Of a DNA stretch of 54,888 nt, positions 21,281 to 51,558 are shown one piece after another (the first letter of the stretch is position 1; each line of letters opens with the position of its first letter). A program made the position numbers and the translations under genes. Below the pieces are notes generated by a model, which saw only the letters and a list, made by a program, of their open reading frames with translations, made no database searches and was not told the origin of the DNA. Source of the DNA: Hydrolagus affinis. Taxonomy: Eukaryota. Location of the stretch: positions 1 through 54,888 of the forward strand of contig JAAILG010002404.1 of the NCBI GenBank assembly GCA_012026655.1, read 5' to 3'.

Positions 21281-21394
21281 GTTGAACTCAAACTTTCACA
21301 CTTTGGGTTTGACTACACTATATGGACTTCATGCAGGATGTCTGACATCCGAACACACATGAGCCAATCTGTGCATCACACTGTAAGTCAAGAC

Positions 21395-25815: not shown

Positions 25816-25928
25816 TGTAGAACCTCTCGCTGTTCTAGATTGTATTTGCCGCCATTTTCCATTGCTGCATTGTGAATGGCTTCAATAGCTCGGTCTATTG
25901 ATTGAAGAACCAGGTCTTGCTGATTTGA
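25816..25928 (-). CDS. NCKIPSD: NCKIPSD exon 2
   Basis: SNQQDLVLQSIDRAIEAIHNAAMENGGKYNLEQREVLQ; acceptor tttgtaaag|, donor CA|GTAAGT; 113 nt, phase 0->2. Confidence 0.93.
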
Positions 25929-30150: not shown

Positions 30151-33100
30151 TACCATACTAAGTAGCTACTATTTTTTCCCTTCTCGCAAGCCTATGTAGG
30201 ATAGCTAATCCTAAGCATTATCTTCAGACATCAACTGTGGAACATGCCAACACAAGCCTAGACATTGCATTTCCAATCAAAATTGGCTGGTAATGGTGCA
30301 GATAATTTAAACTTAAAGCACTGAAACTGTAAACACAGCTTCATATAAACAGAATACTTTCAATCCATACTATTAGCCACAGCTCATCTGCAGCTCATAA
30401 TGTGGTGAAATTCTTCAACACCTACAATTCTTCAGCTTGTTATGATGTTGAATAGTGAGGAAATTTAATTTTGCAGTTAATAGTCAACCTGGCTTTCATT
30501 TCTGACATATAAAGGCACTAATATACTATTTACACCAACGACAAGCTTTTAGAAGCATAATTGACTGAATCTGGATCACAAACGAAAGACTTTAAGAAGT
30601 GTTTGCGACTTAGGCTCAGTTCTCACAATATTGGTGTTAAAAATGAACTTTTAAAGATATTGTGCATCTACAATTTTGCCTCAACCTTACATTTTTATTA
30701 GATCTAGAACAAAAAAAAGTTGAGTTTATCAGCATTATCTGAACCCAGATATTATGAATATTCCTTGCATTTACATTGATATATACACTCAAGTTTACAC
30801 AATATTCTGTCCTACAACTGTTAATCTCAATGTCTTGCCATTGTTCTATTTAATGATTTGCAGCATTCAAATTGAATCTTACGTGAAACATTCAATCTAC
30901 GTGAAACATTAATATTTAAAACAAGTTACGACGAGAGATTTAAACTACTGTATGTAACAAGACAAGGAAATATGACAATACCAAGTCTCAACATTGTCAT
31001 GTTCGTCTTATCAGGGACACAAAGGATTAATTTAGGAATTTAAGCCCTGTATTATTTTTTGCCTGAAAATTTCAGAGTTTATTTCTTCATTTACTCAAAT
31101 TTCAGTAGGTCAAATTTTCTATTTGAATAGGATTCTTTAAATTATACAGATTAATTATATCGATTGATTATATAATTACATTTAATGCAGAAGAAATGTA
31201 AAAATGTTAATTTTTCAAATGAGCTCCTACAATATCACCGACAGCAAAATATATTTCTGAATACCAAATAAGAAGGCTTGTGTGTGTAGCTTAGGAATTT
31301 TTCACATCAAAAGCAATTCCTGCAACAAACTGGTAACACCTTTATTTTCGTTTGACCAACAGCAGCCTGTATACAATACAAAGTCACAATACAGTAAATT
31401 TCCAGATAAGCACAGCCACATACCTGATCCAAGAGTAATTCTGACCCAAGCACAGAATTCTAAATGCATCAAATCACTCCCCAATACATAGAACGCTTCT
31501 TCCAAGCATAATTTTTAAATGCACCATTATGATCCAAGCAGATTTTCTCTAATATTCCTGTTTTCATTGCTCAGCACATTGTATACTGTCAACCAATTAC
31601 CACCTAAACATAACACCACATTAGTAATTAAATGATTAGCACATTAGCACCTTCCTGAAAGAGGATTTTTTTTGTTATTTTTCACAAAAGTGAAGTATAC
31701 TGTATTGTGAAGTTCTGATAAATATTAAAGTGTTTAATGAATGGAAAGGCTGTGGTAAGAAATACTACAAATGGGTCATGCAATCTATACAAATTTTGAT
31801 ACAGTAACTTTTTGGCAAACTAGTGTTTAAGACTAACTACTTAGTTATTACAAAACAGTGAACATATTTTGCAATCAACTAAAGTTGCTTATATAAGCAA
31901 GCGGTGTCAAAACAGATATAATGGACCCATTTACTACTAAATCCAATATACAAGCCAAATAAATGGTTCCAGTAGAAAACAACATGCAACAAGATCATCC
32001 ATGAACAAATTGATATTGTTTCACAACTGGAAAAAAAGTGAAATGGGATGTACAAGTTACAAAATGATTAGAATATAAGAATTAGGAGGAGTAGGCCATT
32101 CGCCCCTCGAGCCTGCCTCGCCATTCAATATATGCTTATATGGAAAAGATGTATTTAAATAATACCAAATATATGCTACAAAAAACCAAATGCATACGGA
32201 AAAACAATAGTCAAACCCAATTTCATTCCAATTGTAAACAAAGGAGGGTACTCACATCTCGTAGACTAAAATAACAATTGACAGAATTGTTGTATAGGCT
32301 AGCAGGAATTAAATCTATATCTATATATAGCAATTGAAGACACCTGGTGAGAGCACCCTCGCTTATCCAATTATGCCAATGAATCAAGTATTTGTATTAG
32401 AGCTTAGAATATGCATACATTAAAGGAGTTGTGTTTCCAAGATAGATGTACCATTTCCAGAGCTGGCAATCTCTTTTAATTCCCCTGATCCAGAAATAGA
32501 CCCATTTAATAGAAAAATAATTTCTTCGATTTATAAATAAATCACTCTTCTGTCCACACCAGATAGTTATTTCAAAAGTGAAGAGCACATAGAGCTCAAA
32601 CAATTCCCTCTGTTATCTTTCTCCCCCAACACCAGTTCTGTATTTCCTATAGAGCACCTTCACTGCATTAGAACAAACATGCCTAAAACAGCAGCAAGCC
32701 TGCAGCCTGTAAGTTATGTCAGAATTAAAAAGACTATACAAAAAATAAACCACAACAGGCTACCCCACAGGCACTAGTGAAAAGAGTGGGTGAGGTAGGG
32801 GAGAATTATTCAGGAATTAACAGCTCCTTTAATTCTGCAGCTTGAATTCTGCTTTGCAAAGGAGATTAAAATTAGAAACAAAAAAGTTTATGAAAGAAAA
32901 AAAAAAGTAAAAATGAGGGTAACAGAGGGCTGTATTGAATTACATGGTAAATAGATTATGCTACTGAAAGCTAGTATAGTAAATGGACTTCACTGTACCA
33001 TTAACAACAAAATCACAGATCTAGTTCTAAAGAGCAAATGTAGCCCTTGCATGTGGATGTTTTGGTTCTAATATGATGCTTTTGAGATACTGGACCTGTT

Positions 33101-33930
33101 CTGCATTATTTAAAGAAAACAAAGTAACAGATGGGACAGTTTTCAGACTGATCTATACATGTAAGACAACTTGGTCATTCAGAAAATTGAAGCCTTCGTC
33201 AAAAGGTTTATTTTAAAAAAATAAATGTTACCGATACACATGACAAATGGAAACTCAGATAAAACCCCAAATCGGACCTTTCTGCACTGCATACAGAAAG
33301 CTGGGATTTGTAACTCCCTGAAATGATACACAACAGCCCTACCCCCTCCAAAAAAAATAGCTTTACATATCTCTTAAAATCACATTTACCACCATTATTT
33401 TAAAATATCGCCCGAATGGAATAATCAATATATCCATCAAATTTCACAATTTTGGAACAGTTCACAGCATTTTGTATCACTTTTTCCACCATGGAACCAA
33501 AAAATAATTTTAAACCTCAATATACCACCAGAGCATTCTTTAAAATACACATTTGTTTGAACATTGGCTTTTCAGAGAATTCAGATTTAGGATACAATTT
33601 CAGAAGCTGCTTCCTATCTACACAAGTCTTACATCCATTTCAGAAATTATAGCAGCCGATTTAGAAAGTTATTATCTAAATCTTTAATACAGAATCACAT
33701 CCAATCAGTTGATAGGAGAAACTTTTCTTTAGTCTAAGAAAGGTAAAGTGAATATCAAGGGTTTGTTTGATTAAAAAGGTACCAATGTTGCTAGTCATGG
33801 ATAACCCACCTGTACTTAAACTAATATATAAAAGTCCTGTTTTGCTAGTTCTTCATTGTATGGTAGACATGCTATGGTGTGGAAGCAATCAGCAATAAAG
33901 GAACAGTATACAGAATACTGGTAGATGCCT

Positions 33931-33936
33931 TTTATT
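33931..33936 (-). terminator. Candidate polyadenylation signal (AATAAA) of the nested gene
   Basis: AATAAA on the minus strand ~175 nt downstream of the stop; another at 33207-33212. The hexamer is common in AT-rich DNA. Confidence 0.35.
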
Positions 33937-34109
33937 TTAGGCAATGTAATGTAATGTAAGGCTAATGTAATGTAAGGCAATGTACATTTTTTTGTAATAC
34001 AATTACAAACAACGTAGCACCAGAGAATAATCACGAGTTAAAGAAATTAGATTTCCTCCCTCTTTTGTCATGCATGTCCGGAGACACCAGCAGTCAGCGC
34101 CAACCATTT

Positions 34110-34323
34110 TCATTCAGAATCGGACAAAGGATCCAGATCGGATTCCGTTGAGTCAGATTCAGTTTTGGATTCTTCCCCTCTTCTCCATTCTTTGAGGAGA
34201 AGCCTCCACTGTTCAGCTTGTAGCCAAGCAGCATACGCTGCATCTAAGTAATCCTGCGCCTCTTCAGGCTTCTCCAGACAAAGCCTCAATAATTGGTCAA
34301 GCTGGTCTGAAGTCAGACGATTC
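34110..34323 (-). CDS. Nested hAT-derived gene, last exon (TGA stop)
   Basis: Manual translation: RNRLTSDQLDQLLRLCLEKPEEAQDYLDAAYAAWLQ...ESDSTESDLDPLSDSE*; the junction completes IKNKYRNRL; 214 nt. Confidence 0.92.
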
Positions 34324-34422
34324 CTGTCAACAAAGATAAAAACAGAAAATGGAAGAACATGAGTTGCTAATAAATCAGATCAGAATCAAGTCAGGTGGCC
34401 GATTTTCAACTTAAGAATATAC

Positions 34423-34571
34423 CTGTATTTGTTTTTTATCAAGTTCACAGAGGAAAATCCCCTCTCGGGTTCAATAGTCGATGCAGACATCACCACACAA
34501 ACCTCTGATAGTATTGAGAAGTTTGGATATTCTTTTCTCCACATATCAGAGTGTGCCAGATCAATGCAAAC
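34423..34571 (-). CDS. Nested hAT-derived gene, exon 11 (hAT C-terminal dimerisation domain, catalytic Glu)
   Basis: EYPNFSILSEVCVVMSASTIEPERGFSSVNLIKNKY; ERGFS motif; ctctccag| ... AG|GTATAT; 149 nt. Confidence 0.94.
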
Positions 34572-34979
34572 CTGGAGAGGGGAGGAGGGGAAAGAAAAAA
34601 GGAAATTCACTAAGATGGCTTTTTTTCTCTCCAGAAGTACAAGTACACCTGGCAATCAGGTATAGTGAAGTTCCATTCTTATCACTGCTCCAAATTCCAA
34701 ATTACACCTTGATGCTTGGGATATGAAATACTCATAAAGGTGCATGTTATGAACCAGATTTTACAGAAATGGGAAGTAACAGAATAAAGTAACAGAAATA
34801 TAGAACTTTACGTTCTATGTATGCATTCTTCTTTTCAATATTCGGCATGATATAAAGAAAACCAATTTTGCAGATACATTTTGGTGTAATTTTAAGCAAG
34901 GGAAACTCAATAATAGAGGGAATCTATTAAAATTTTAAATTATCTTAACGTAACATCTATTTCTTGAAGTACAGCTTAC

Positions 34980-35228
34980 TTCTTCCAAACTCTCTCCTTT
35001 TCTGGTTGCAATTAGATATTTCATCTGGTCCCATTCAGCAACTAGATCCTTTCCATTGTTGGAAAGAAGGTCTGAGAAGTGATTCTGCAGTGCAGCCGCC
35101 TCGTTGTTGCCATACTGAGCCAGTTTCTCAGGGTCAGAAGGAATCCTATCAGGATCCAGAATCCGAAAAGATCTGATGATCGCATTATCAGGAAATCGCT
35201 CCTTCAGACTATCAACGATAATTCTCAC
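34980..35228 (-). CDS. Nested hAT-derived gene, exon 10
   Basis: VRIIVDSLKERFPDNAIIRSFRILDP...YGNNEAAALQNHF...AEWDQMK; the LxxRFP, LDP, YG and EW motifs are typical of ZNF862-like hAT proteins; 249 nt. Confidence 0.92.
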
Positions 35229-35659
35229 CTAATAAAAGAACCATAAGTATAAGACTTGAAACAAATATTATCAAAATTCATTTTTACCAATAATTATCAA
35301 ACAAAACTTGTGTTTTCTCAGGCATTTTTAATATTATTGAACGCAAAATGCAGTGACTGAATTTGCTTTCTAACTCTTTTATACTGATACCATACACAGC
35401 TCCCTACTCTATGGTTTTTCATCCACACAATGGATGCATGGATTGTTGTATACTAATATTATGTAACCTCCCCTCAATGAAGATGGTGCAAGTGACCCCT
35501 ATACAAGTGAGCAACTTGGGAGATGATAGGGCAGACTGAGAAAAAAAAATCCAATGTCTCCTGCTTGCTGAGCAAAATGTTGAAACAGAATTTATTTTTC
35601 AGGCCATCCAAAAACTTTCCAATAACCATTCCATATTAACTGAGCCTTGTCAATGTGAG

Positions 35660-36078
35660 CCTGCCTTAGTTGGCAGCTCTCTCACCTCAGAGTCAGAAGG
35701 TTGTGGGTTCACGCTTATAGTCTAGGTTGACACTCCAATGCAGTGCTGGGGAAGCATTGCATTGTCAGGTGCCGTGCTTCAGATGAGATGATAAACCGAG
35801 GTCCCATCTGTCTGTTCAGTGGAAGATGAATCGCATGGCACTCTTTGAAAAGAGAAGGAAATTTCTTCTGGTGTTCTGGCCAATGACCCCCACGCCTCCT
35901 CCCACACAAATAAAATTGGTCATTCGTTCATGGCTATGTGATACATAGCCTGTCAATACAGGGACAACTTGGCTATCATATTAGTCTACAAATAATAGTC
36001 AATATACTTTACAATAAATACAGTGAAGCATTTTTGACAACATGATAACCGGCTATATCAAATGAAAGAATTATTATC
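35660..36078 (+). mobile_element. Deu-domain SINE (SacSINE1-like)
   Basis: tRNA-like head GAGTCAGAAGGTTGTGGGTTCA followed by the Deu-like core TCAGATGAGATGATAAACCGAGGTCCC...CATGGCACT...CTGGCCAAT; recognised from memory of the family. More decayed copies lie at ~29490-29690 (+) and ~19880-20010 (-). Confidence 0.7.
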
Positions 36079-36239
36079 AAGTGGATGCTGCATTTCCACT
36101 AAGGTTCCATAAGGTCTGACACTGAAAAGTTATTTAATGTGATATTAAAGCATTTAGCATTAAAGCATTGTTTTAAATAATAATCATTGCATTTGATATA
36201 TCACCTCATCATTGTCAAGATGATACTTCAACAGGATAC

Positions 36240-36480
36240 ATATCACACATCTCAGAGAGGACATTATCGATTTTTATAAAGTTTAATGGGTTAGAGAAAG
36301 TAAACCTGGAATGATACTTTCCGATACGTCATGGCAAAGGTTTACGGTTATCAAGGGCAATTTAGGGAAGAATAGAAAATATTTCTTCATAAAGAGGGTT
36401 ATCATACTTCTGCATAAATATAGTCAATAGCGGTGAGAACACAGGATTCATTCAAAAAAATTATCTGAATGCTGTAAATG
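36240..36480 (+). mobile_element. Decayed CR1 3' fragment
   Basis: Degenerate LRGDIIxxYK...RKYFFxxRV coding remnants. Confidence 0.55.
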
Positions 36481-37193
36481 CAAAATGGTATGATTGGCAT
36501 TCTAAGTGACATAAAATTTGATTTATGGCTTTTCACCTAAACCTCTGGTGTCATTAGAAAAAAATTAAATGGATTTCTTGCAGAATATTAGACGAGAGGG
36601 TCAACTTCAATCATCGATCAAATCGAGGGGTATACAGAAAATTATTTCAGGACACAGAAGAGTAACTACTTCATAAAGCCTGAAATTTTGATGTTGGCAA
36701 TATTGGCCGGTGTTTGTTGAAATATACTGTGGCTTGCTGGTCACACAATGACTCAGATTCTATGGTAACACTCAATGGGGTTGGAAATCATATCCTTGCT
36801 AGTAAAATATTGTTCTTTCATATGATGTAGAACAGACGGTTATTAGGAAAGCTAGAACTGATCTTAAAAACTGTTTGCCCTGACCTCATTTATAATGGGG
36901 TATGTGAATGCCACTGGAAGACCAAGCGAAAAACTTCCAATAAACCAACGCAGCTCATGTAAGTGCCAGATTTAATTATTTTGATCTGAAGTCAGGAAGA
37001 ATGTATGACCATTGAATACTATACCAGGATGTAATAAAATATATATTAAGATTCCAAGATGTAGAACAAGGAGAACAAATCTTGCAGGTTGACCAGCGAA
37101 GCACTAAAATGAAGGTTAAATCCACGTCCTGGATTAGTATTGATTATTTTTAAATGTCTTGCTGTCATCATAGCCTTGAAAACATCTACTAAC

Positions 37194-37500
37194 CAGAGCT
37201 TTAACAGGAGCTGCTATCTCATCAGTGGCTTTTGCTGCTGTCTTATGAAGTATGGGTCCGTGCGGTTTTCTTGAAGTAGGGGGCCTAGAAAGAGCACCAC
37301 TTTCAAGCGTCTGTATTCCAAGGAGAAAGCTGCTCTCCCACAATATATTATTTCCAAGATATTTGCATTCAAGGAGGTTGATTGTTGCTTGAACCCTTTC
37401 AGGAACTCTGACGGTGTTTACAAATTTTTCGTGAAAAAATAGTGATAGATTATCCAAGTGGTGGAGAAGGTCTCTCAAGAAAAAGATGGCAAGTAGAATG
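37194..37500 (-). CDS. Nested hAT-derived gene, exon 9
   Basis: ILLAIFFLRDLLHHLDNLSLFFHEK...APVKAL (cf. FLxDILxxLxxLSxxFQ); tttacag| ... CTG|GTTAGT; 307 nt, phase 2->0. Confidence 0.85.
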
Positions 37501-38204
37501 CTGTAAAGGTTCAAAATAAAAATAATAAATACACCACAAACATATAGAACTTCTAATATTAACGACTAAATTTCAGAGCTTGCGTTTCTCATATACAAAT
37601 TATTATTTTTTTTAGAATAGGTGGGAGTGTGGAAAAGGCCCAATCAGTGTATTTTCAACCCCAAATGTCACAGAGAAGTTGGTTAACAACCTTTGTAAGT
37701 AAACCTTTACTAAAATAAAGAATAAATCCACCACCATTGTGTTAGTCACTGGTAATCCAGGGATTGCTGGCAGTTAATTGAAAGCAAATAGTTATTTAAA
37801 TTTCAGTCTATGCACTAATGGTGCTCAGTATTGAATACTTAACATGTGCACAATTAATCACACCTTTCTCCTTTCTGCTTTTGTCCATTCTCTCTTTTGC
37901 ATGAATCCCTCATTCTAACATTTGTTTTTTTTCTGCTTTCCTGGTTCCACCAAATACACATTGATTAAACTTTATGGAATATCCTGTGAGGCTTTTAACA
38001 TAGATAGTTGTCTCACAAAAGCAACTACATCAATCCTTGATTTGGAAATGAAGAAGTAAATGCAGCCGACATTTACTTGAGCAGCAAGTGACCCACAATT
38101 GCTCAAGCAAATAAACCTGCCTATGGTGCTAGATTTTAAACATAAGATCTAAAAATTACAGGTCATTAGGAAATCAACTTGAATAGAAAATTTTAATACA
38201 GTAC

Positions 38205-38426
38205 CGAGGTTGCTGAAGTTTAAGTAGGATGCTTTCTGCTGTGATGTCATGATCTACGTTACTCATATCAGCAAAATAGATTATTAAAGTTTGATAAGAT
38301 TTGCAAATTGCTTGCACTGCTATCCCCCGGTTTATCCACTTGAGGTTGCGGGCCTTCGCCAGTTTGATGGTGCTCAACTCCAGGACATTGAAGACCTCTT
38401 CCAAACCACTATGCTTAACAGTGGAT
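38205..38426 (-). CDS. Nested hAT-derived gene, exon 8
   Basis: STVKHSGLEEVFNVLELSTIKLAKARNLKWINRGIAVQAICKSYQTLIIYF...LQQP; LKW occupies the hAT TRW position; 222 nt, phase 2->2. Confidence 0.88.
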
Positions 38427-38497
38427 CTTAGTAAAAAAAACAGGAGAAAGTAATTGTCAATTTACAGTAAATTGCAATTCTGTGTAGCTGGGAAGGA

Positions 38498-38760
38498 ACT
38501 GAGTGGTGCAGCAGGTTAGAACACTTTCAGCTCTGGCTCTTAAGGCTAAAATACTGCTCCTAGAGGGGATAAAAATCTCTAATCTCAGACAGCAGATAAC
38601 TGATCCAAGTAAAATGAACCTTGAATGTCTTAGTCCATTTCACTCAACTAAAGTCCACAGAACAAAATAGCTGAATATATTAGGACTACTCTGAAGCAAA
38701 TCCACTCAGAGATGGTAGGAATTTTTTAAACTGCAGTTTTGAAATGTACGTACGAGTAGC
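38498..38760 (+). mobile_element. Decayed LF-SINE-like element
   Basis: tRNA-like head and GTAAAATGAACCTTGAATGTCTTAGTCCATTTC, resembling the LF-SINE core as recalled; heavily diverged. Confidence 0.35.
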
Positions 38761-39349
38761 TATGTAATTGCTTCGAGTGACTGGCAGAAGGCTTGACTAC
38801 TGTGTTTGGTCAGCCAGGTCTCTGACCTATGAAGAAATCCATCACCATGCTTAAGAGAGTTCCATATTTGTATACCATCTAGAATATAGAAATTTTCATG
38901 TGTCTAGAATGGAATGCCCACTCTCTCCCTGGAAGGGCACATCCTACTTACCTAATGTCAAGAGAGTATTAGGTGCAGGTTGGCAATAGCCAAGGCATGG
39001 TAATCCATGCGTGGACAATTAGGCAATGCTGGCATTTAACCAACTAAAACCATAGCTTGCCATTGTGAGTATCTGGAAAGCTTTCCGCTGCTTGTCCAAT
39101 TGGTACAACTTATCAATTAGGCCTTTATCTTGCAGAATTAACAGAAGCTGAGTGGGAAAATTCCTGGCCTCCAAGTTCAAGTGATAGGTCTGGCCTCCAA
39201 ATTCTGCCAATGAGTCCAGCTGGTTGGTTATCAGCGGTGGCCTGGAGGAATGTGGACCATTTGGCTCTGGTACCAGATGACTGAAACAGTCATAGAAGAT
39301 TGACTTGATTCCAATGAACTACAGGGAGTTCCCATTTATCTCACCCAAG

Positions 39350-40450
39350 GAGGAGAGGCACTGGATCGTTATTTGAAATCAAATAAGTGCAGGTTTAAAC
39401 CTTTACTAGGTGGATAGCGGGTACCAGTAAATTCCAACAAGCTTCCAGTTGAACAACACAGCTCTGCATGAAATACAAGAGCATCGCCACCATCTTCCTG
39501 CTCACAGCATGGACACATATCCCTACTCGTTGAATGATAGTTCCTCCAGGAGGAGGTGTGGAGATGGTCTCTCTGCATACCAATCAAGGTGGACACCAAG
39601 GTTGCCAAGTTCTTCATGTATGAACACAAGTCCATGAACTTGTATTCAAGATAATGCCTGGAAAACAGCTGTCGTCCTGAACCCGCGTTTTCTCATCAGC
39701 TATTTGATGGGCATCCATCTTCAGCGTGATGCAACAATCTTTACAAGACAGTTTGTAATGCACTAGCCACCTTCATGTTCCAAAGATCCAAACCAGACTT
39801 ACTTAGCCCCAACTATTTATTCAAAGTGCTTTTTGAGAGGCTTTGACAAATAGAACTACTTATCACGAAGCTGACAGCCTTCAGGCAGCTCAGCAACTGG
39901 TCAATGTATACCAGTGCCTTCCCACCCTGCAGCCTCATTCCCCCATTTACAAATCCACCTCACTTGTCCTAGACTTCACAAATGGGCTAAAGGAACCCTA
40001 TCTTCAGTATGCTCAGGAGCTCGGAACCATGAAGGAAAACATGTCTTATATGTCACAAGTTTAACACGCACTGGAACCTTGCTTTCCTTAACAAGGCACA
40101 AGAAAAACCAGAGTGCCCTTTTCGCTTTCTCAACACAGTCCAATAAGACAGTGTCCAACCAAACATTGGTGTCCACCACAACCCCCAGATCCCAATAAGA
40201 ATCAACAGTTAGGACTGATGCATTTCGTATCTTCCGATCAATACCTGCAACGTCCACTCTTGAGCTGCACAGTGCCTTAATATCGGACTTGGGGGCACCC
40301 ACCATCATGTCCCACTGAGTGACCCAGTGTTCAAGATGGTGAGTGTAGCACACGAGATCCCCAAGTGAGTCCGCCAACAGCACAATATCATCTGCAAACA
40401 GAAATGCCGCAATTCAGTCAGGAATGCCTGGAATAGATACACCAAGTCCA
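39350..40450 (-). mobile_element. Decayed non-LTR retrotransposon RT/C-terminus (not L2-like)
   Basis: AFLFADDIVLLADS (FADD at ~40387-40398), YWDLGVVVD (YLG motif) and C-terminal RDMCPCC; contains stops and frameshifts. Confidence 0.8.
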
Positions 40451-40540
40451 CCTGTACAGGAAGATGAACTCACGAAATAGGTGGTTTTAGGTACCTTAAG
40501 TTCCATTATAATTTCAGCATACATGTTTAGTCTATTTTAC

Positions 40541-40677
40541 CTGGAAAAGTATGAATAAATAGCTTTGAAGCATCCATCTATTTCTTCAAAAAGGGAAATG
40601 TCATTATATGCCTCTTTAATGGCTAGAGCTTCTGAGTGTACCACAAAGTGCTGCCCAAGTAGCCATGGAATATCTAC
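40541..40677 (-). CDS. Nested hAT-derived gene, exon 7 (CxxH region)
   Basis: Manual translation: VDIPWLLGQHFVVHSEALAIKEAYNDISLFEEIDGCFKAIYSYFS (cf. HCxAHRLxLA...IYxYFS); ttattacag| ... AG|GTAAAA; 137 nt. Confidence 0.9.
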
Positions 40678-41016
40678 CTGTAATAAAATGACAGCATAGA
40701 TTGATTCATATTGTACATTACAAGAACAGTTTAATGAGATACATTATATTAATGTGTTAATCCAAATTTAGTCAAAAGTTTCTGTATTATGGCATTCTAG
40801 ACACTTTTCCAGCAGTTGCCTGAGCCCAAGATATAACGGCAGATGCTAAGAAATTCCCAGAACCATTCATTAATATACTGCAATAATTATTTTAAAAATC
40901 TCTATTCTATCATTTAAATAGAAATTCCAAATAGGAACCCCATTTGGTTTAACAGACCAAAACCATTTGGTTTAACAAACCAAAATCTCTTTTAAGAGCA
41001 AACATAACTCCTTTAC

Positions 41017-41205
41017 CTTGAGCTTGAGATGAAGGCCTCCTTTTGAACCCATCATGATGGCTGATCCATTTGTTGTTATCATAGCCATAGATTGGAAACA
41101 GATCTGGTGTTCAACATAGAACTTCTTTATGGATTTGTATAGGGACATAGCATCAGCTTTACCATCCAAATACAGCAGCTTTATGAATTTTACCTGCAGT
41201 TCTGT
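41017..41205 (-). CDS. Nested hAT-derived gene, exon 6 (second Asp position = Asn)
   Basis: TELQVKFIKLLYLDGKADAMSLYKSIKKF...MITTNGSAIMMGSKGGLHLKLK aligns by eye to the consensus TDGAxxMxG; 189 nt, phase 0->0. Confidence 0.9.
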
Positions 41206-41617
41206 CTGTATACAATATATAAAACATTTTTTTTTAAACTAATGATAATCAACAACAACAACAAATTGCATTTTTTATTGCATTTTTTGGAGACAATCCA
41301 CTCCTGCTTTAACACTAAACTAGAAAAAGGTAAATAGATATAAATGTTGATAGAGAACAGAAAGCTTATACTGGTGGTAAGCCGTGCAATTGCTCTACAA
41401 TAATTTTTTTTAAAGATTTCACCTTTGGAATACAATAGTATCAGCCCTTCGAATAGCACATTAGAAGATATGAAAGTGAACACTGATCAGGATTTCAATT
41501 TAGTTATGTTTCTCAATAATCTTTAAATAGTTCACTCCTGTCAAATCTCTAGATTAGAAGCTAACATGAAGTAAGCCAGCCACAAGAGCTACTAAATATT
41601 ACAATCTGTTTGCCATA

Positions 41618-42388
41618 CAGGTGGCATGTCAAAAATCCGGCATGGTTGGGACCAAGCATCTCCCGGATTTTGGAGTTTGCTGGTACAGTAGAAGCCCGTT
41701 TATCCGTGACTCGATGCAACGGCACTTCCATATAACCGGCACGCCCCAAAAAAAGTCCCCATTCGAACTCATCCGGAACAATAACAGTGGAGCATTTGTA
41801 AATGCATAAATAATAACATAATAACAGAATATTGTATTGGTACTTATTGTTAAAACTACTCTCTTGCGCTTTTTACCTTTGCTGGTAGATGCTTCGCTGG
41901 ACTGTAAGCCTCAATCAGTAAAGGTGAGAAATGCAAAAGAGTAGTTTTAACAATAAGTACCAATATAATATTCTGTTATTATCTGTTATTACTCAGTCTG
42001 GTGTGTCTGGTGTGTGTTAAAATAACCTTTTTTTTTGTAGTGGGTTTTCAGCCGCGGTCCGCCCGAATATCCGGCAGGCGCTTTAACCAGCATTGGCCAG
42101 GTCAGGGTGCCGGATAAACGGGCTATTACTATATTTAGAAACCCGCCCTAACATTGCGTAATGTTGTTTTATTTTACACAATATAGTTTTTAAGTGTTAT
42201 TTAACGTGATTTATGTGTAAAAATATATAACAATCTAATGAAATAAGTGTTATTACTTAAAATTAAAATAAATTGTAAATTTAAATGGAATATTTTCAAA
42301 TCTTTTTTAGGGAAATCTTTGAAAAAATTTTTAGGGAGTTTTAGGGAGTTGCCGGCTTTTGGAATGCCGGATTATCGTCGTTTTACTG
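41618..42388. mobile_element. Older Tigger-like element hosting the nested MITE
   Basis: TA|CAGGTGGCATGTCAAAAATCCGGCA ... TGCCGGATTATCGTCGTTTTACTG|TA; imperfect TIRs. Confidence 0.55.
41686..42131. mobile_element. Tigger-like MITE with long internal hairpin
   Basis: TA|CAGTAGAAGCCCGTTTATCCG ... CGGATAAACGGGCTATTACTA|TA; same TIR family as the element at 20765. Confidence 0.85.
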
Positions 42389-43178
42389 TACCAAAATTAT
42401 ATTTTATTAGTTCTTGGGATTCTTAGAAGTGGTAGGACACTCCATTGCAAAACTAAAGAATATTTGTACATTTGCTTTCTCTCACCTAAATTTTGGCTAA
42501 CATCCACTGCTTGATAGCAGCATATTAATACAGTTCCGAAGATTGTACAATTATCAGCCCCTGAACTCTTGGCAGATTATCATTCTCAAAGGAAGGGATA
42601 TTAAGGCTGAGCCAAATATTGGTAACAGTTTCATTTCCTATCTATGTATATAAGTGTGTTTTCTACCTCTCCAACATTTGAATACTAAAACCATTATTAA
42701 GACAAGGAATTCTCCGATTGAGAAAGCATTCTTCAGTATCAATGATTCATATATTAAATTTGGTAGAAGTCTATCAAACCTATCAAAACATTTCAATTTT
42801 TGTAAACAATTCATAAAATTATAATCTCTACCTACTTTTCAGATATAAAACAATGACTAAATATGGGGAACATTAAAAAAAACTATATGGCATTTATCAA
42901 AATTAATATTTTGTCAGAATATTTTGTCTACTTCCTGAAAGCAATGTATACAAGCACAATGCAAGTACAGTATATGGATTCCATCCAGTTCAAATCCACT
43001 GAAGTTAAAATAATTACACAATAAAAACCATAATGTAAGGGGCAGCCAATATATATTCCGCATCTTGAAACTTACTCCCTTATTAGTTAAGTTGGTTGCA
43101 AATTCACTGAGAATTGGGCAAATAGGCCCTCTACGAAAGCCCACTCCCAGTAAAAAACCGACAAGTGGAGAACTTTAC

Positions 43179-43386
43179 CTTTGCTAGGAATTTTGTGTAC
43201 ATCAGCAGGTGCTTTTCGGTGGCAAACTCTGTACTTTCATCGACAACCAGAGAATGAACCCTGGCTTGCTTTAAAGCCCTCAAGTTTTCTGCCTCAACGG
43301 GTTCGTTAAGAGCTGCAACAAATTGCCAACTATAATTTTTGCTTCTGTGCCGTCTACCCAAAGACACACCATGGGTCTCTATTAAC
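43179..43386 (-). CDS. Nested hAT-derived gene, exon 5 (first catalytic Asp motif)
   Basis: LIETHGVSLGRRHRSKNY...HSLVVDESTEFATEKHLLMYTKFLAK; the DEST motif is typical of hAT RNase-H-like cores; 208 nt, phase 2->0. Confidence 0.92.
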
Positions 43387-43467
43387 CTATAATAAAAAAT
43401 GGTTGTGAGAAAAGCATAATGTAAACAACATGGAAGAAATTTATGTTTTAGAAGTACATTTCTTTAC

Positions 43468-43743
43468 CTGTGTAAGCTTTTAGCTTTGGAAATGGGTAAC
43501 TGTTCCTTGATTAACCAAAGAACATTTCTTAGGAGATGAACAATGTCATCTTTTGTGTCACTGCTCAGAGCATCAGTAAACAGTGCCTTCTCCCAGTTGG
43601 CTGCATTTAACGGGACAGACAGCGCCTGAAGGTGTTCCCTGCTGGCCAGGTGGCGAAGCATATAATCTTTTTTCCAACCACCTTGTGGTTCAGACCTACC
43701 GCTTGTCCACTCTGTATCAGTAATGCTATTATCAACACAGACT
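43468..43743 (-). CDS. Nested hAT-derived gene, exon 4 (rest of zinc finger)
   Basis: The junction completes CFCKVC; then WTSG...GWKKDYMLRHLASREH (HxxSxxH); attttag| ... AG|GTAAAG; 276 nt. Confidence 0.9.
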
Positions 43744-43848
43744 CTAAAATAGAACACAAACCAAAAAAAATTTGTTTCCCTTGCATAAAAATCCATAAAT
43801 AACACTGTTAATTTCAATGATTCTTGCTTGTTAAATACTGATTCTTAC

Positions 43849-44084
43849 TTGCAAAAACACTTGTTTTGTTGCTCATCATATAAGAAACAGAATAGCCGTG
43901 GATCCATTTGAAGCCATGATTTGATTCTACAATTACTTCCTCTACACCTTTTCAATGCTGCAAAATCGGAGTCGGAACTTTCCTTCAAATGACCATTAAT
44001 ACTATTGGAGTATAAATTGTCAGCCCCACCTTTGTCTTCATCTTCATCAATCTCATGGCCATTAACACATTCCTCCTCAGAATT
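43849..44084 (-). CDS. Nested hAT-derived gene, exon 3 (acidic N-terminus, start of TTF/BED-type zinc finger)
   Basis: tttctgcag|NSEEECVNGHEIDEDEDK...KSWLQMDPRLFCFLYDEQQNKCFC; donor AA|GTAAGA; 236 nt open, phase 0->2. Confidence 0.85.
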
Positions 44085-44180
44085 CTGCAGAAAAACATAG
44101 TGAAATTATACTTTAGGTGATGACTTTTAAAATGAACTCATCATTAAAACAATTTTTAAAAAATCAATCAAAAATGTTAC

Positions 44181-44250
44181 CTCGGATGATCTTGTAGTTT
44201 TATGCTGAAACAATTCTAAAATAGAGCGATGTATTGTATGTCCATCCAAA
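44181..44250 (-). CDS. Nested hAT-derived gene, exon 2
   Basis: ttttccag|T TTG GAT... gives LDGHTIHRSILELFQHKTTRSSE; donor GAG|GTAACA; 70 nt, phase 2->0; 96-nt intron to the next exon. Confidence 0.6.
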
Positions 44251-45115
44251 CTGGAAAATGTGAAACATGAAGTTAAAAATAAAATACGAAATGCTTAAAT
44301 AAAAAAATGATATTTTTAAAATGTGTTTTTATCCCTTTTGCTTCTGTGATCACCAAAAAAGGTTTTAAATCTTAACCATTTCACCTTCTAGCCCTCTCTT
44401 AATTTCTATATGGATCTCTTATATTTGGATAACTCCTTCTAACATCACCTTATAATGCTCTCTTATGGAATCAAATTTATTTTAATTAGGAAAGGTAGCA
44501 ACTTCCCAATTCAGTAACAAAAAGTCATTCTATTCTAGAGAATCTGCACAATTGTATTCACCTAAAGAATTTCGACTTATCTTTGATTTGGGTAATTTTG
44601 AAACACCAGGCTTCTCATTAACAGAGAAAGGATTGCCCCACGGCAATAATTATCAAATGACTGTACTCTAGAAACTACAAGTCACTTTATAAATTCCCCA
44701 TTTTCTCCTTACTATATATGAAACATCAAAATAAAACCAGACAAAAAAACTAGCTTGTTGTTTTTAGCTATTCACAAACTTAATTCTCCATTAGTCAATC
44801 ACACATATTCCTATACACTGACGATCAGTTTCATCACAATGGTTTCTGAGTCATTTTGCGCAGTAATATCATATGGGCCTGTATAATTTTTAAATTGTGG
44901 TTAATTAGTATTTTTGTGGATTAAAGTATTCATAGAAAGTGCCTACACTCTGCAATGCTGTGTATTTGCAGAAAGTTCAAAAACCTAAATTGTTTTGGTA
45001 CTTCAAGCTTTAAGGATCTTTCTATACCTTGACTACCCCATAACATGGTATCTTTTATTTTATTAAAAGGAATAAAAACACATTTAAATCACACTATATA
45101 TTTTTTTCCTCTTAC

Positions 45116-45150
45116 CTTTCAAAACATAACTTGCACCCTTTTAGCGTCAT
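45116..45150 (-). CDS. Nested hAT-derived gene, tentative first coding exon (MTLKGCKLCFE)
   Basis: First ATG after an in-frame stop, followed by a strong donor AAG|GTAAGA. Its phase 2 matches the next exon. A possible acceptor at 45343 would make the upstream part 5' UTR. No homology support. Confidence 0.45.
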
Positions 45151-47382
45151 AACTGCACATGAAAACCAGCTGGTCCTTCCACAGCCTTAGGGAGTTCCTC
45201 CACAGTTGCCCCATCTTGTCAACGAATATATTTGGCGGATTCTCAAATGCTTCAGCAGTCCTTTCCTCACTGCAGCTCCAAAGCTTCCTCAAGTCCCCAA
45301 TAACACCAATGGATAGAAAACTACTGACCACAGTTCCGGAGCCCTGATTGATTTAAAAAGCTGACCACACGCTTTTTTAAAAAAAATTGTAGACAGGCCA
45401 ATTTTCAGTTTCGGTGCCAGTTTGCAGGGAAAAGAACAGCAAAAGCGCATATGACTGCAAGAAAAACTCAGAAAATGCACTTGGATATTTGGTCACAGAA
45501 ATACTGCTCTAAATCTACTCTGTACATTGTGCACAAAACTTAGTTACACCACATTACTCTGAAGTGCATTTCTCCTCCACCCACTCCGCAAAGAGACAAA
45601 CGCTTGTAAAGAGACTGATAATGCATTAACTGGTGGATGGACACTTGCATCAAAACCTTAGCCAAAGATCTATTCTCAAAATCATTCAATTTTGCTATTA
45701 ATTTTTTTTTACTATTATTTTCATTTGTAGAACATTTGTGGCACATTCTAGAACAATGGCTGAATTCAAAATTACTGCAACACTCGTACAAAATTCTTTG
45801 TAAATATCCTAAAGGTTGTAACCATAACTTGCACTGATAATAAAACACCACATGCACCATAAAAGAAAGGTTAACTTTATAGTTTATTCCTCATTCTTCA
45901 AATGTCTAAATTTTCCAAAAATTGATAGTTGTTACAAGCAGCAATATGTAAGAATTGCTGATAGTGGAAAAAGGTTACCTCTAGCGCCAATAGAAGGCAG
46001 ATACTCCAGCAGTGTGTGGAGAATGATGAATGAAGATAGAAAGATTACCTACCTTTGTAGGGCTTCATTATTCTACAAGTGGCAACATTCTCCATACACC
46101 ATGAGAATACCCTTCTCCCACTGACACTAGTAGGTAACATTTGCTGAGGTCAAATATTATCTACTCACAGGAGTAGCATATTCATATGGTATATGATGGG
46201 TGGGAAGTGAAGAACTGTTTTTTCTACAGTTATTTAAATTAAATTTTAAATTTTTTTTGCTGCTATTAGGTCATAATACACTGCTTTGTTTAGTTTTGTT
46301 TCACGATATAATGTACTTCTTTACCCACTCAAATACAAAATCACAAAAGAAAAATCAAATGTTCTGTGGCATATCCACAATGATACAAATAGATTATTTA
46401 ACCAGATTATTTATACATAATATTAAGTACTAAATAAATTGAAGATTAAGATTTTAATCAAAGTGAAAACATCCAAGAATGAATTTTGTGCTTTTATACA
46501 TTAAATGCACCAAATAAATGCATCCTATATTAGGTCGCAATTATGCAGTAGCAACTTAAAACTGAATGGAAACATTGTCCATCAAAGGACGTTCAATCTA
46601 GGATGACTAAGAGCTGTCCCAGCCTACTAGTTTGCTTACTGTTTTTATAACTGGTTTAATTCAATTGATATTTACAATATATTCTTTGTTTCTATAAACG
46701 ATTTCAGCTGCCACACAATAAACAATCACCAAAAGACAATCCTGCACATGCACTATTTCAACAGAAAGCAGCAAAAAATAATATTTTTTTTATCGTACAA
46801 ACATGTACTGGTCAAACTTCCCTACCTTTCTAAATCATGGAAAAAATCAATTGGGAGAGGAATAATTTAAATTCCTGAAATATCAGAATATGGAGATAAG
46901 GAAGAATAAGACATTTACTCAATCAAAGCAAGAAAGAATGCTTTTATTATATTTTACTATTATGGCTAACAAATTTCCAAAGCCATTTTACATCATGCAA
47001 AGTACAACATTTTAGCTATGTAAAACAATGTACAGGATTTAATAGTATTTAGTATTTAAAGTCTCACCACCCAAATGTCACGTTGCTAGCTACGCATAAA
47101 TGTATAGATTTTCCAGTTTCCATGTACAGTATATCAAAGGTCTGTCCCTCTGAATATGCTAATATTCATACATCATACATCTTCCCTAATGAAGACACAC
47201 CATTCACCAATAAGTACCTTTCTAAGTTTCCGGAAATCTGAGTCTTAGATACCTAGTCTCCTTGTTTAAAAGGTGCACCAGTAGACCTTTCATCACAATA
47301 ATAACATTACACGAATTTACATTCACTTTATATTATTGGGTTATAATATGGGTGTTTTGTTCATGTAATAATGGGCCTTTTG

Positions 47383-47492
47383 CCCACAAATATACAATTA
47401 ATACACTGTATATTCTGTGAAGTGCTTTGCGGCATCTAGAAGACGTGAAAAGCGCTGTATCAAATGCAAGGATTACTTTTATTTTATTATTA
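47383..47492 (+). mobile_element. SINE 3' tail
   Basis: Same tail sequence as the other copies. Confidence 0.8.
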
Positions 47493-50400
47493 ATATGCTA
47501 CATATCCCTACCTATTCATTCTTCAGTCATGTAATACAAGCAAGAACATACTATCAGTGCAGTACATTAGTGGCAGACAGATTTACAGCATGAAGCAAAT
47601 ATTCAAATTTCCCTGCACTGAATAAAAGAGGGAAGTGGTTTTCTGATAATCAGTTGTGCTACATCCTAAACTGAGAAAATAAATATATAGGATATGTGAA
47701 TTCCAAGTTGGGCTCAATTCAGATTATGCAAGAACATTCTGATATCCCCTACTTAATTCATCATTACACCACTGGACGTTTACTGAAACCATTGTGATCC
47801 TAAACACTTACTTCAGAACAATGCAAATCAACAAATATTTTTAGTTCTTATCCCACTGTATGTCAGTGGAAAGTACAATCAATGTTTACATCCATTACCA
47901 TTTATCTCCATTGCATTGGGTGCTCATTAGACAATTTTTAAGATGCATGGTGATCACAGAATAAACATCACACTGTGCTAGTCATTTCCACAGTTCTCTC
48001 ACTTGTACAATAATGCCTTTGTAACTCACTCATATGACTTTTGAATTATGAGCCTTTCCACTGATAGGCATGAAACACCTTTCATTATTGCCAGATCTAA
48101 TGAACTCCCAATTTATGCCCTCATTAATATTGTCCTACCAATTTCAATAAACTACATAAGACCTCACAGTAAAGAAATATCAAATGCAAAGTTGATGCAA
48201 CTGTTTCATTCTATCTAAAATTGGAAGTGGAAAAATATTCAACAAAAATAACAAGGATGAGGATGGAAAAATGGAAAACAGCACTTTCATTTTGTTAAAA
48301 AAAAAAGTTCAAAAAAGACGTTTAACAAATTATCTGATAGCCACAAAACAAAACCAGAATACTGACAAAGTAAATGAATTCAAAACGTGCAATAATAGCC
48401 ATCACGCTGGTAAAATACATGTGGCATGCAAACATTGAACATTAAAGCAGGGGTTGAATTCAACACTTGCCAGTAACCCCAGGATTAGTCGAGATACTCA
48501 TTTTTAAAAGAATTGATTATAAGAGATCATTATAGCCATAACAGTCTTCCAATCTCCAAAAAGAGAACAAATAAATACATTAATAGCATGTCTTAAAACA
48601 TGCAATAATAAATAAAGAGCAAGACTGCAAGACTGAATGCCTTACGAGTATCTTGTGTCTCAGACTAGAGAAATTTCCCCTATTGAGCTACCAAATTAGA
48701 AGTTGATAAAGTTCCCAAAATATTTTTTAAAAACATATTTTTAACCCCTGCGTTAACATTTTAACCATTACGACACACTTTGACCTTTTTGGTGTATAAT
48801 GTAATACAGTATCATGATCTTGAGGTTTTTTCTAAAAAAAATTCTAGGAGAGTGAACAATTTTGCACTCTATAGCCGCATCAAAACATTTGCAAAAATTT
48901 TAAAATTGCATAATCGTACACAAGTTAAATTTACCACTTGACATATAGTATTCATTAATTTAAAAGACTATGCTAAAATTGTTAAAATTCAAGGCTCTGC
49001 TCACTCCCATAGAATAATGCAGAATACCTCACCAGTGGCCCAAGAGTTCCAGTCCTACTCATTCACTTGAGCAAAAGATCATCCTAACTACTTGTGCCTG
49101 CAGCATTTGTAAGTTACGGCCAACTCAATGTCACCAGTGAGATATCCTCAATGCCACACAAGTTTACTGCAGATGTCAGGCACAAGGAAATCGCAATCAA
49201 TTTCAACTCACAATTACATACAAATTACAATGGGCTTTCAAGTGTACTGTTCAACAATTTCCACTGCATTTTTTTAAAACTGCACTAACTTTATCAATCG
49301 TTAATGTTTCTTTACAATTATGACAACGCAATAATCACACAACTCAACTTAGGTTCTTAATGAGTAATATTTGCCTAGAGAAATGTTGGTCAGACACTGC
49401 AAATGGAATAAAATGAAAATTTCAAAAACAAAAGAAAATAGATATAATAGTAATACTAATAATATTATAAAATATATGTAGAGAAACTGTAATTTTAAAG
49501 GTAACAACTACTGTAGCAATAATGTTAAATTGTTGGTTGCATGTAAAGACTGAAAACACACAAAAAAAATGCTGAGCATGCTATTTCCAGCTTCATCGAT
49601 TACCATGAATTAGCTGAACACAACAGTTTTAGACCAAAAGATAAGATATTAGGTACTGTTAAGGTACTGTTTTAATTGATTTGTGTTCCACCATTCTAAA
49701 CTATACAAATTGTTGTTGTTGTTCAGATACAGTAACCATTACTGGACTTCATACGTAGTCCTTTTAAAGAAACCATGGAGTGTCACTAAGAAAAGCAACC
49801 AACATTCTTTCATAGAGATTGTCAACTGGAAGAAATACCTGATAGACAGTTAATCAGTTAAAACTTTTGACTATGAATTTCATTCTCCTTAATGTCGCTC
49901 TGATTCTGTGCACTAATGTTGGCATGCCAGTTCAACTGTGATGAAATTGAGCCAGTGACATAAGAATTAGAGCAACAATCTATAGTCTATGCAGCCCAAT
50001 TCCACCCCTATATTGAGTTGCGATTAGGATATCACACTGGTGACAATACATAAAAATACATTTCTTTCATATCTGCAAGTCCCAAAATGTACAAGCAATA
50101 CAGGCACAAGTGATATCTGGATAAAACATTTCACAAATGAAAAACAACAACATTAACAGGAACACTGTCTCTGGTGCTGCAATGAAATACAGAGCTCAAG
50201 ATCTCAATCGGACACCCAATATTTATCTTGAATTGGGAAATGTGAGCAGCATTGTTGAAGGAATGTAAATACTCTGAATCACAATTTGTTTTGTTTTTAA
50301 ATCCTTGGCAACTTACAAATAGTGAAGACAAAGGTGATATCAATGGTGGTATATGTGAAATACATTTATTATATTCAATATTGCTGAAGCAGAATTTAAA

Positions 50401-51222
50401 CAGCATGAAGCTATAGCTTCGTACTTATTTATTCTTGCGTCACAACTTGTAATTTTGCTGCTCACAAAATCAACTGTTCATACATTTGTGAAGTCAAAAG
50501 TAGTGTCACATATGGGAGAACATTTCACAGACAGCCACAGAACACAATGTTTAATAGAGAAAACATACAAAATGCTACCTAGAGACAAAATCACCCCTGA
50601 AGAATAATCAGAATCGCTCAACATTCATTCCAGGCCTTTCTTCACTCAAACGAAAGGTAAGCGCAACTCATGTCACACCTGTGGCAGTATTGAGTTAAGT
50701 ATCTTTCATATTCGTAAAAGAAGCTGCATCATGATAATATGGCAAGATACCAAGTTATGTTTAAGGTGTCCATCAAGGCACACATCTGTACAGAATCCCG
50801 TACATGTACAGGTTATCAATCAGAATATGTGAGCATATATGTTTTAGCAATTGGGTATATACTGTATATACACACTTATCAACCCTCCCCTCCCTACAAT
50901 CGTTTTGGCATGAATTACTGGGCACAAAACTGTTGTCATCGAGGCAGTAAATCCACAACAACCAGCAACCACTTAAAACAGTGGACACCTTGAACTGCGC
51001 AAGCGTGTGCAGCTTACTTCAATACACATCAATCTTAACTTACCTTCCCTCTCCTTATTTTATACGAGGAGGAGCCGGGTGCTGCTGAGGGTATTATGAT
51101 TAAACACGGTTTTTTTGTGTGTGTGCATGTGTGTGTATATGTATATTGCGTTTCCGAAGATTATGATAATAAGGCAGAGGAGGCAGGACAACAGCCAACA
51201 CCCCCCCACCCCCTACCCCCAC

Positions 51223-51242
51223 CTCTCTCTCTCTCTCTCTCT
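51223..51242. repeat. (CT)n microsatellite
   Basis: Read directly. Other simple repeats: (TG)n ~51604-51623 and ~52392-52411, poly-C 52741-52755, (ATA)n ~52994-53022, (TA)n ~53125-53152. Confidence 0.9.
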
Positions 51243-51387
51243 TGTTGCTCTGACAGAATACTAAACACACGATCTGCCTTCCACCTTCCCCTTGACACAA
51301 CAAGGCCTCGGCTGGATCAGCTCAAAGCAATGCAGCCACATACATACATAAACACACACCCACACACATAAGAGTCCCTGGTCTTAC

Positions 51388-51558
51388 CTCGTCTTTCTGG
51401 ATGTAGGAAGCCGGAATGTAGCCCACTTCCCCGGTGCTGCTCTTCGAAGCCAACCACCAGTGTTGGTTACTTCGCTCCAGAATAACGAAACTCTCGCCCG
51501 CTGTGAAGTGCAGCGAGTGCGGTTCGGCCGAGTGGAAGGTGTACAGAGCCCGGTACAT
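51388..51558 (-). CDS. NCKIPSD: NCKIPSD exon 1 (start codon, SH3 domain)
   Basis: MYRALYTFHSAEPHSLHFTAGESFVILERSNQHWWLASKSSTGEVGYIPASYIQKDE has the SH3 ALY/WW/GxIPxxY motifs. Start context gccgccATG; donor GAG|GTAAGA; 171 nt, phase 0. Confidence 0.96.

What the first reader, a model, noticed from the sequence alone, without database searches (positions are those of the whole stretch)
40645..43241. The nested transposase has lost catalytic residues (DDE -> DNE, CxxH -> FxxH) but kept its DNA-binding and dimerisation modules
Seen in sequence: D1 is retained (VVDEST, 43239-43241) and the Glu is retained (ERGFS, 34464-34466). The second Asp position reads TTNGSAIMMG (AAT at 41068-41070), the CxxH motif reads HFVVH (TTT at 40645-40647), and TRW reads LKW. 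The zinc-finger CxxC and HxxxxxH ligands are intact. Established knowledge: both the DDE triad and the CxxH motif are needed for hAT (Hermes-type) transposition. Inference: this is a pseudo-enzyme, probably a dimeric DNA-binding regulator or a dominant-negative repressor of related hAT elements. The acidic N- and C-terminal tails (EEECVNGHEIDEDEDK; ESDSTESDLDPLSDSE) fit a transcriptional role.
Basis: partly seen in the sequence, partly recalled or inferred. Interest (0 to 1): 0.78.

Follow-up and report, generated by a model that had tools for sequence, protein, structure and literature searches.

The report
Dead transposase gene of cartilaginous fishes
Sharks, rays and chimaeras share a strongly conserved gene made from an old jumping-gene enzyme that has lost its cutting residues, sits inside the first intron of a cytoskeleton-adaptor gene and may be spliced onto that gene's protein-binding domain.

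Summary
The window is a chimaera NCKIPSD locus whose intron 1 holds a same-strand, spliced hAT-derived gene (ten core exons, 728 open codons). The Asn and Phe are neither errors nor misalignments. Asp fills that column in 137 of 139 distant relatives and Cys in 136 of 139. Among 19 chondrichthyan species, all 15 that carry the exon have Asn; 17 have Phe, 1 Leu, none Cys.

One correction: the 'retained' Glu is Asp in all 18 sharks and rays. The protein keeps the Hermes fold and is better conserved than its host gene in 28 of 28 species pairs. It is a domesticated pseudo-transposase.

DNA binding is only partly supported: the zinc finger is intact, but the C-terminal end-binding region has turned acidic. 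Dimerisation is untested, and a dominant-negative role is unlikely.

New lead: NCKIPSD exon 1 (SH3) joins the first core exon in frame, and RefSeq models of three species show SH3 fused to this protein. I did not see that junction in RNA myself.

The parts
51388..51558 (-). NCKIPSD exon 1 coding part (SH3 domain, 57 codons, phase-0 donor); candidate N-terminal fusion partner
   Evidence: Pfam SH3_1 E 5e-13; 171 nt, donor GAG|gtaaga; joined to this protein in RefSeq models P0003/P0018, P0012, P0016
45116..45454 (-). Upstream exon U1; holds the chimaera stand-alone start codon at 45150. The 5' boundary is my inference
   Evidence: tblastn of Callorhinchus P0020 and Chiloscyllium P0005; contig pieces 45116-45440 (X5) and 45057-45355 (X9); stops in the frame of host exon 1
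44181..44250 (-). Upstream coding exon U2; Met start in sharks and rays, Ile here and in Callorhinchus
   Evidence: X9 joint 44086 to 44187
43849..44084 (-). Core exon 1: acidic disordered N-tail and first zinc Cys (43853-43851); phase-0 acceptor, no start codon
   Evidence: pLDDT under 50 for residues 1-83 of P0083
43468..43743 (-). Core exon 2: remaining zinc ligands (Cys 43739-43737, His 43652-43650, His 43634-43632)
43179..43386 (-). Core exon 3: first catalytic Asp kept (43241-43239)
   Evidence: spliced in runs
41017..41205 (-). Core exon 4: second catalytic Asp replaced by Asn (41070-41068); symmetric 189-nt exon, absent from some batoid isoform models
   Evidence: spliced in runs
40541..40677 (-). 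Core exon 5: CxxH reads FxxH (Phe 40647-40645), His kept, following Arg replaced by Ser
38205..38426 (-). Core exon 6: RW motif reads KW (Lys 38341-38339)
37194..37500 (-). Core exon 7: helical insertion domain
34980..35228 (-). Core exon 8: helical insertion domain
34423..34571 (-). Core exon 9: third acidic residue (Glu 34466-34464; Asp in sharks and rays), hAT C-terminal region
34110..34323 (-). Core exon 10: last helices, near-invariant acidic Ser/Thr-rich tail, stop codon
33002..34109 (-). 3' untranslated region of the nested gene (at least this long), inside NCKIPSD intron 1
   Evidence: X1 record 1 runs from core exon 8 through 33002, with 911 more letters beyond; X20 depth 5-6 on one strand
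25816..25928 (-). NCKIPSD exon 2, the alternative splice partner of exon 1; marks the end of intron 1

Best explanation
A hAT transposon of the ZNF862/KIAA1586-like group was fixed in NCKIPSD intron 1, in the sense orientation, before chimaeras split from sharks and rays. It became a host gene and lost catalysis. Shown: location, splicing, fold, loss of the active-site residues, strong conservation. Inferred mechanism: a nuclear oligomer that binds DNA or chromatin through the zinc finger and the basic RNase-H-like surface without cutting, and recruits partners through the near-invariant acidic tail, as a transcription or chromatin regulator. Also inferred: it is made as an alternative 3' end of the NCKIPSD locus, with stand-alone starts and, in some transcripts, the SH3 exon spliced in frame.
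For: Asn in 15 of 19 species (4 models lack the exon); Phe 17, Leu 1, absent 1; Lys 16, Arg 1, absent 2. 107 of the 115 distant relatives covering all seven sites are intact. Each DDE mutant of Kat1 loses target joining and the CXXH double mutant loses hairpinning (PMC4763223, passages). Identity is 98% to Callorhinchus and 86-89% to full-length elasmobranch proteins; median 94% against 84% for NCKIPSD, higher in 28 of 28 pairs. The model has pLDDT 84 and its top Foldseek hits are Hermes, E 1e-10. Zinc ligands are kept in every species covering them; 21 of 30 basic columns are kept. No flanking terminal repeats with a target duplication were found. Gene and host share contig length in 11 species.
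Against: No binding, location or phenotype data. The C-terminal region is acidic where the family is basic (3% of 119 relatives are as low); the zinc-finger region is +1.3 against a median of +4.5; 9 of 30 basic columns are lost or partly lost. The first Asp, the His and the Trp remain. The SH3 junction was not among the 15 of 213 joint rows shown.
Confidence: 0.6

Rival explanations
1. Protein scaffold rather than DNA binder: the dead fold serves protein contacts, mainly as an SH3 fusion that relocates or sequesters NCKIPSD SH3 ligands and lowers full-length NCKIPSD by an alternative last exon, or as a SUMO-ligase-like adaptor.
For: In-frame phase 0/0 join. SH3-fused models in 3 species, two of them with exactly this join. 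Transposase-only records filed as NCKIPSD isoforms in 4 more species. The stand-alone Met differs between chimaeras and elasmobranchs. The end-binding region is acidified. The nearest relatives are named 'E3 SUMO-protein ligase KIAA1586-like' (a name only).
Against: Zinc ligands and most basic columns are kept. Most models seen lack SH3, including all 3 Callorhinchus records. Only 15 of 33 members of the main cluster were visible.
Confidence: 0.25
2. Dominant-negative repressor of related hAT elements, by poisoning transposase oligomers or covering transposon ends.
For: The full fold is kept without catalysis.
Against: No relative between 35% and 89% identity among the 150 best clusters. The protein changes more slowly than its host gene, unlike an arms-race factor (inference). 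Basic residues of the end-contact region are eroded. No genome was held to look for cognate elements.
Confidence: 0.06
3. Residual or altered nuclease that uses the kept Asp, His and Trp and an Asp or Glu at the third site, for example a nickase.
For: The first Asp is present in all 16 species covering it and the third site is always acidic. The Kat1 CXXH mutant still nicks.
Against: The second Asp is invariant in 137 of 137 relatives with a residue there and is Asn here. Three batoid isoform models omit its exon. The Arg after the third site varies: R 10, I 5, T 3, V 1.
Confidence: 0.06
4. Assembly error, misalignment or a decaying transposon copy.
For: Asn and Phe are each one base from Asp and Cys codons.
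Against: The same residues occur across sharks, rays and chimaera; the frame is open and the RNA spliced; conservation exceeds the host gene.
Confidence: 0.01

Closest known systems
ZNF862/KIAA1586/C17orf113-like hAT proteins; nearest sequence Ptychodera flava XP_070581385 (P0251)
   Same: Colinear over 709 columns at 32% identity; groups with this gene and with turtle and newt relatives, SH-aLRT 99 in a quick tree; Atlas neighbours are ZNF862-like, DUF4371 and zf-C17orf113 clusters.
   Different: P0251 keeps Asp, Asp, Glu, CxxH and RW. This gene has lost them, has at least nine introns and an extra conserved acidic tail. Human ZNF862, KIAA1586 and C17orf113 were not identified among fetched sequences, so no direct alignment was made.
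Hermes transposase (PDB 6dww, 4d1q)
   Same: Same fold (Foldseek E 1e-10, TM 0.65 on target length) and matching motif columns.
   Different: 12-14% identity; catalytic set incomplete; no terminal repeats found.
ZBED6 (ZC3H11A intron 1) and ZBED1 (DHRSX intron 1)
   Same: Domesticated hAT genes in a host's first intron; ZBED6 is a DNA-binding repressor (PMC3606216, passages).
   Different: That paper reports DDE conserved in ZBEDs and places them with Ac; this gene has lost DDE, belongs to another hAT group and is multi-exon.
Host-transposase fusion genes (KRABINER, SETMAR, PGBD3-CSB)
   Same: Intronic sense transposase captured by splicing to an upstream host exon (10.1101/2020.05.07.082677, sections 5-6 and passages).
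   Different: That survey covered tetrapods; its main text has no 'shark' and no 'SH3'; it found the parental transcript usually lost in old fusions, whereas NCKIPSD is intact here. Its Table S3 and Fig. 3 domain list could not be seen.

Membership tests
hAT transposase-derived protein | RNase H-like core with helical insertion (Hermes fold) | tested here: met
   AlphaFold model of P0083, pLDDT 84; all 11 listed Foldseek rows with E under 0.001 are Hermes
hAT transposase-derived protein | Sequence homology to hAT transposases | tested here: met
   A1 profile hits Hermes at E 7.5e-16; 4191 hits at E 0.001
hAT transposase-derived protein | Pfam Dimer_Tnp_hAT above its cut-off | tested here: inconclusive
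   18.3 and 19.0 bits against 21.4 in 2 of 4 ortholog records scanned, no hit in the other 2
Active hAT transposase | DDE triad | tested here: not met
   D-N-E in chimaeras, D-N-D in sharks and rays
Active hAT transposase | CxxH and RW motifs | tested here: not met
   FxxH 17, LxxH 1; KW 16, RW 1, of 19 species
Active hAT transposase | N-terminal CCHH zinc finger | tested here: met
   All four ligands in every species covering them, 15-16 of 19
Active hAT transposase | Terminal inverted repeats with 8-bp target duplication | tested here: not met
   56 exact inverted 11-mers flank the gene; the only one with a near-duplication is a microsatellite; no convincing flanking pair among the 25 longest of 638
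Active hAT transposase | Excision or cleavage activity; oligomer formation | not testable with these tools
Domesticated transposase gene | Orthologous locus kept across deep divergence | tested here: met
Domesticated transposase gene | Purifying selection | tested here: met
   Protein level only: more conserved than the host in 28 of 28 pairs; dN/dS not computed, no ortholog DNA held
Domesticated transposase gene | Spliced transcript | tested here: met
   8 of 9 introns among the joints shown; six of them in raw one-strand RNA reads of X20, 1-5 reads each
Domesticated transposase gene | Single copy in the genome | not testable with these tools
   No genome held
Host-transposase fusion (HTF) | Host domain in frame with transposase in gene models | tested here: met
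   Leucoraja, Rhinoraja, Stegostoma; frame compatible in the window
Host-transposase fusion (HTF) | RNA reads across the fusion junction | tested here: inconclusive
   Not among the 15 of 213 joint rows shown

The most novel reading that the evidence does not exclude
The functional product is an SH3-pseudotransposase: a host-transposase fusion as old as crown cartilaginous fishes (about 400 million years, recalled). An actin-regulatory adaptor's SH3 exon switches between its normal body and a dead, chromatin-binding hAT scaffold, with both products still kept. This would tie cytoskeletal SH3 ligands to gene regulation in sharks, rays and chimaeras only.
Probability: 0.3. Interest if true: 0.75.

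Novelty: new member of a known kind. Interest (0 to 1): 0.5.

Why it matters
What adds value is that this one appears confined to cartilaginous fishes, is more conserved than the gene that hosts it, and lets the decay of an active site be read by lineage. RefSeq lists it only as uncharacterised, ZNF862-like or a NCKIPSD isoform. If the SH3 fusion is functional, it extends transposase capture outside tetrapods and to a signalling domain, with the parental transcript still kept.

Tried and rejected
Single exons against Pfam gave almost nothing. A single-sequence fold of the fused form P0012 was unusable (pLDDT 36.5). A search for short proteins spanning the SH3 junction gave 1 hit among 7 candidates, not spanning it; this is weak evidence. 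The run search listed no holder on record as RNA (no RNA holder listed); X1, X5 and X9 are RNA by guess only. Joining host exon 1 to U1 or U2 directly does not give an open frame. Two Arg calls at the Asn column (Pristis, Amblyraja) are misalignments across a skipped exon and were counted as absent, following. No ortholog outside cartilaginous fishes was found; relatives over 50% identical could hide inside one cluster, but one search showed none. The careful tree did not finish; the quick tree used 56 rows. No genome was held. Conservation of the host gene was compared only among sharks and rays, not against this chimaera. Paper searches found no description of this gene; the library lacks most subscription journals. 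Two look-ups of earlier findings were blank.

Full report
Observation. The LKW Lys is at 38341-38339. These sites lie in different exons. Ten core exons from 44084 to 34110 give one open frame of 728 codons with GT-AG introns. Two more exons lie upstream, U1 (45454-45116, 5' edge inferred) and U2 (44250-44181). Four public runs were laid on 33000-52600. Of the 15 joint rows shown out of 213, eight match introns of the model; one is inferred from a joint with 18 replaced letters, and the 105-nt intron was not shown. Six are seen in raw reads of run X20, 1-5 reads each, all on one strand. A contig carries the last three exons into a 3' untranslated region of over 1.1 kb.

Setting. The host is NCKIPSD on the same strand: its SH3 exon is at 51558-51388 and its exon 2 starts near 25928. 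The nested gene therefore fills intron 1. The model is 98% identical to Callorhinchus milii XP_007888642 and 86-89% to full-length shark and ray proteins, so the window comes from a chimaera. Orthologs were named in 19 species. No ortholog outside the class was found: after the class's own cluster, the best of 150 hits are 37% identical or less.

Is the alignment right? Alignment A1 holds six orthologs and 139 of the 149 distant hits (ten very long or short ones left out). The Asn column is Asp in 137 rows (2 gaps), the Phe column Cys in 136 (1 gap), the Lys column Arg in 134 (1 gap) and the Glu column Glu in 122 (15 gaps). Of the 115 rows covering all seven sites, 107 are intact. No other Asp lies within 20 residues of the Asn. 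The A1 profile matches Hermes at E 7.5e-16 with these columns on FVTD, CSSH, TRW and SER. An AlphaFold model of the Callorhinchus protein (pLDDT 84, pTM 0.78) finds Hermes first (E 1e-10). The nearest free relative, a Ptychodera protein, is colinear at 32% and keeps all catalytic motifs. It groups with this gene in a quick tree of 56 rows.

Are the changes fixed? Yes. Among 19 species, Asn is present in 15 and four stored models lack that exon. Phe is present in 17, Leu in 1, absent in 1. Lys-Trp is present in 16, Arg-Trp in 1, absent in 2. The third residue needs a correction: it is Glu only here and in Callorhinchus, Asp in the 18 sharks and rays, and the following Arg is R 10, I 5, T 3, V 1. 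Isoform models of three batoids omit the 63-residue exon that carries the Asn. In Kat1, each DDE mutant loses target joining, and the CXXH double mutant nicks but makes no hairpins (PMC4763223, passages seen). Catalysis is therefore very probably gone. The Cys alone was not tested in the passages I saw, and the His is kept, so the Asn carries most of the weight.

Is it a working gene? In 28 of 28 pairs among eight shark and ray taxa it is more conserved than NCKIPSD (median 94% against 84%; one taxon mixes two skates). Across 11 full-length orthologs, 595 of 728 positions are invariant. No terminal repeats with a target duplication flank it. It is a domesticated gene, not a decaying copy.

What is kept for function? 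All four zinc ligands are kept wherever covered, as are 21 of 30 family basic columns, and the core's net charge is ordinary. Against this, residues 661-740 are acidic (-2.5 to -3.8 per 100, family median +6.0; 3% of 119 relatives are as low), and the Arg after CxxH and the C-terminal basic motif are lost. Of the Hermes end-contact residues K585, R586 and R588, my reading is that the first aligns with Tyr, the second is Arg in 19 of 19 species, and the third is Leu in the two batoids of A1. The C-tail is disordered yet invariant at 22 of 23 positions and rich in Ser/Thr among acidic residues, which suggests a partner-binding, perhaps phosphorylated, motif (inference). The N-tail is invariant at only 19 of 50. 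As I recall, the Pfam 'dimerisation' region is not the main Hermes dimer interface (from memory, no call).

The SH3 link. Host exon 1 is 171 nt with a phase-0 donor, and core exon 1 opens at phase 0 with no start codon, so the direct join is in frame. RefSeq models of Rhinoraja and Stegostoma have exactly this join, and Leucoraja links SH3 through two further exons. Transposase-only records are filed as NCKIPSD isoforms in Mobula birostris, Cetorhinus, Mustelus and Amblyraja, and Heptranchias numbers the two proteins as consecutive isoforms. The stand-alone start differs: Met in U1 in chimaeras, Met in U2 in sharks and rays. Against: most models seen, including all three of Callorhinchus, lack SH3; only 15 of 33 members of the main cluster were visible; these are predicted models; and the junction was not among the joint rows shown. 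I put fusion transcripts at about 0.7 and the fusion as the main selected product at about 0.3.

Mechanism. Most likely (0.6) it is a non-cutting DNA or chromatin-binding regulator that recruits partners through its acidic tail. A protein scaffold, mainly as the SH3 fusion, comes second (0.25). A dominant-negative guard against hAT elements (0.06) fits poorly with the lack of close relatives and the slow evolution. Residual nuclease activity (0.06) is not excluded. Location, splicing, fold, residue loss and conservation are shown; binding, oligomer state and partners are inferred.

Comparison and novelty. It works like ZBED6, a domesticated hAT repressor in a host's intron 1, but ZBEDs are reported to keep DDE (PMC3606216, passages). 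Its layout resembles the host-transposase fusions of 10.1101/2020.05.07.082677 (passages and sections 5-6). That survey covered tetrapods, has no 'shark' or 'SH3' in its main text, and found parental transcripts usually lost in old fusions; its supplements could not be seen and may list SH3 partners. GIN2 is a published precedent for an old vertebrate domestication with an eroded triad (PMC3424704, passages). It is not an active hAT transposase: triad, CxxH and terminal repeats fail. Six searches (listings only) found no account of this gene in the held library. Verdict: a real, undescribed member of a known kind, with an unproven but testable fusion that would raise its interest.

Noticed in passing
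window 45116-45454 (-): Exon U1 is mostly non-coding yet matches contigs of two other organisms (X9: 23 differences over about 300 letters). In a frame other than the chimaera start it holds a 31-codon ATG frame that ends just before the donor, possibly a conserved upstream ORF.
   Followed up: partly
window 41017-41205 (-): The exon carrying the Asn is symmetric and absent from Leucoraja X2, Pristis X4 and Amblyraja X2 models; such a product would lack several core strands.
   Followed up: partly
window 38427-40540: A contig of run X5 has 147 extra letters between core exons 5 and 6, a multiple of three, suggesting an optional exon not placed on the window.
   Followed up: no
window 41818-41982: Hairpin with 77-nt arms in intron 3, inside a stretch with high two-strand depth in X20; probably a small repeated element.
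   Followed up: no
window 39976-40413 (-): Reverse-transcriptase-like fragment (FADD-type motif, label recalled) in intron 5 of the nested gene.
   Followed up: no
window 5260-5490, 18531-18864, 21394-21743, 24751-25013: Copies of a short interspersed repeat with a tRNA-like head in NCKIPSD introns (label recalled).
   Followed up: no
P0251 (Ptychodera flava): Closest free relative, two records on contigs of different length, catalytic motifs intact but Gln after the Glu; a good control for activity assays.
   Followed up: partly
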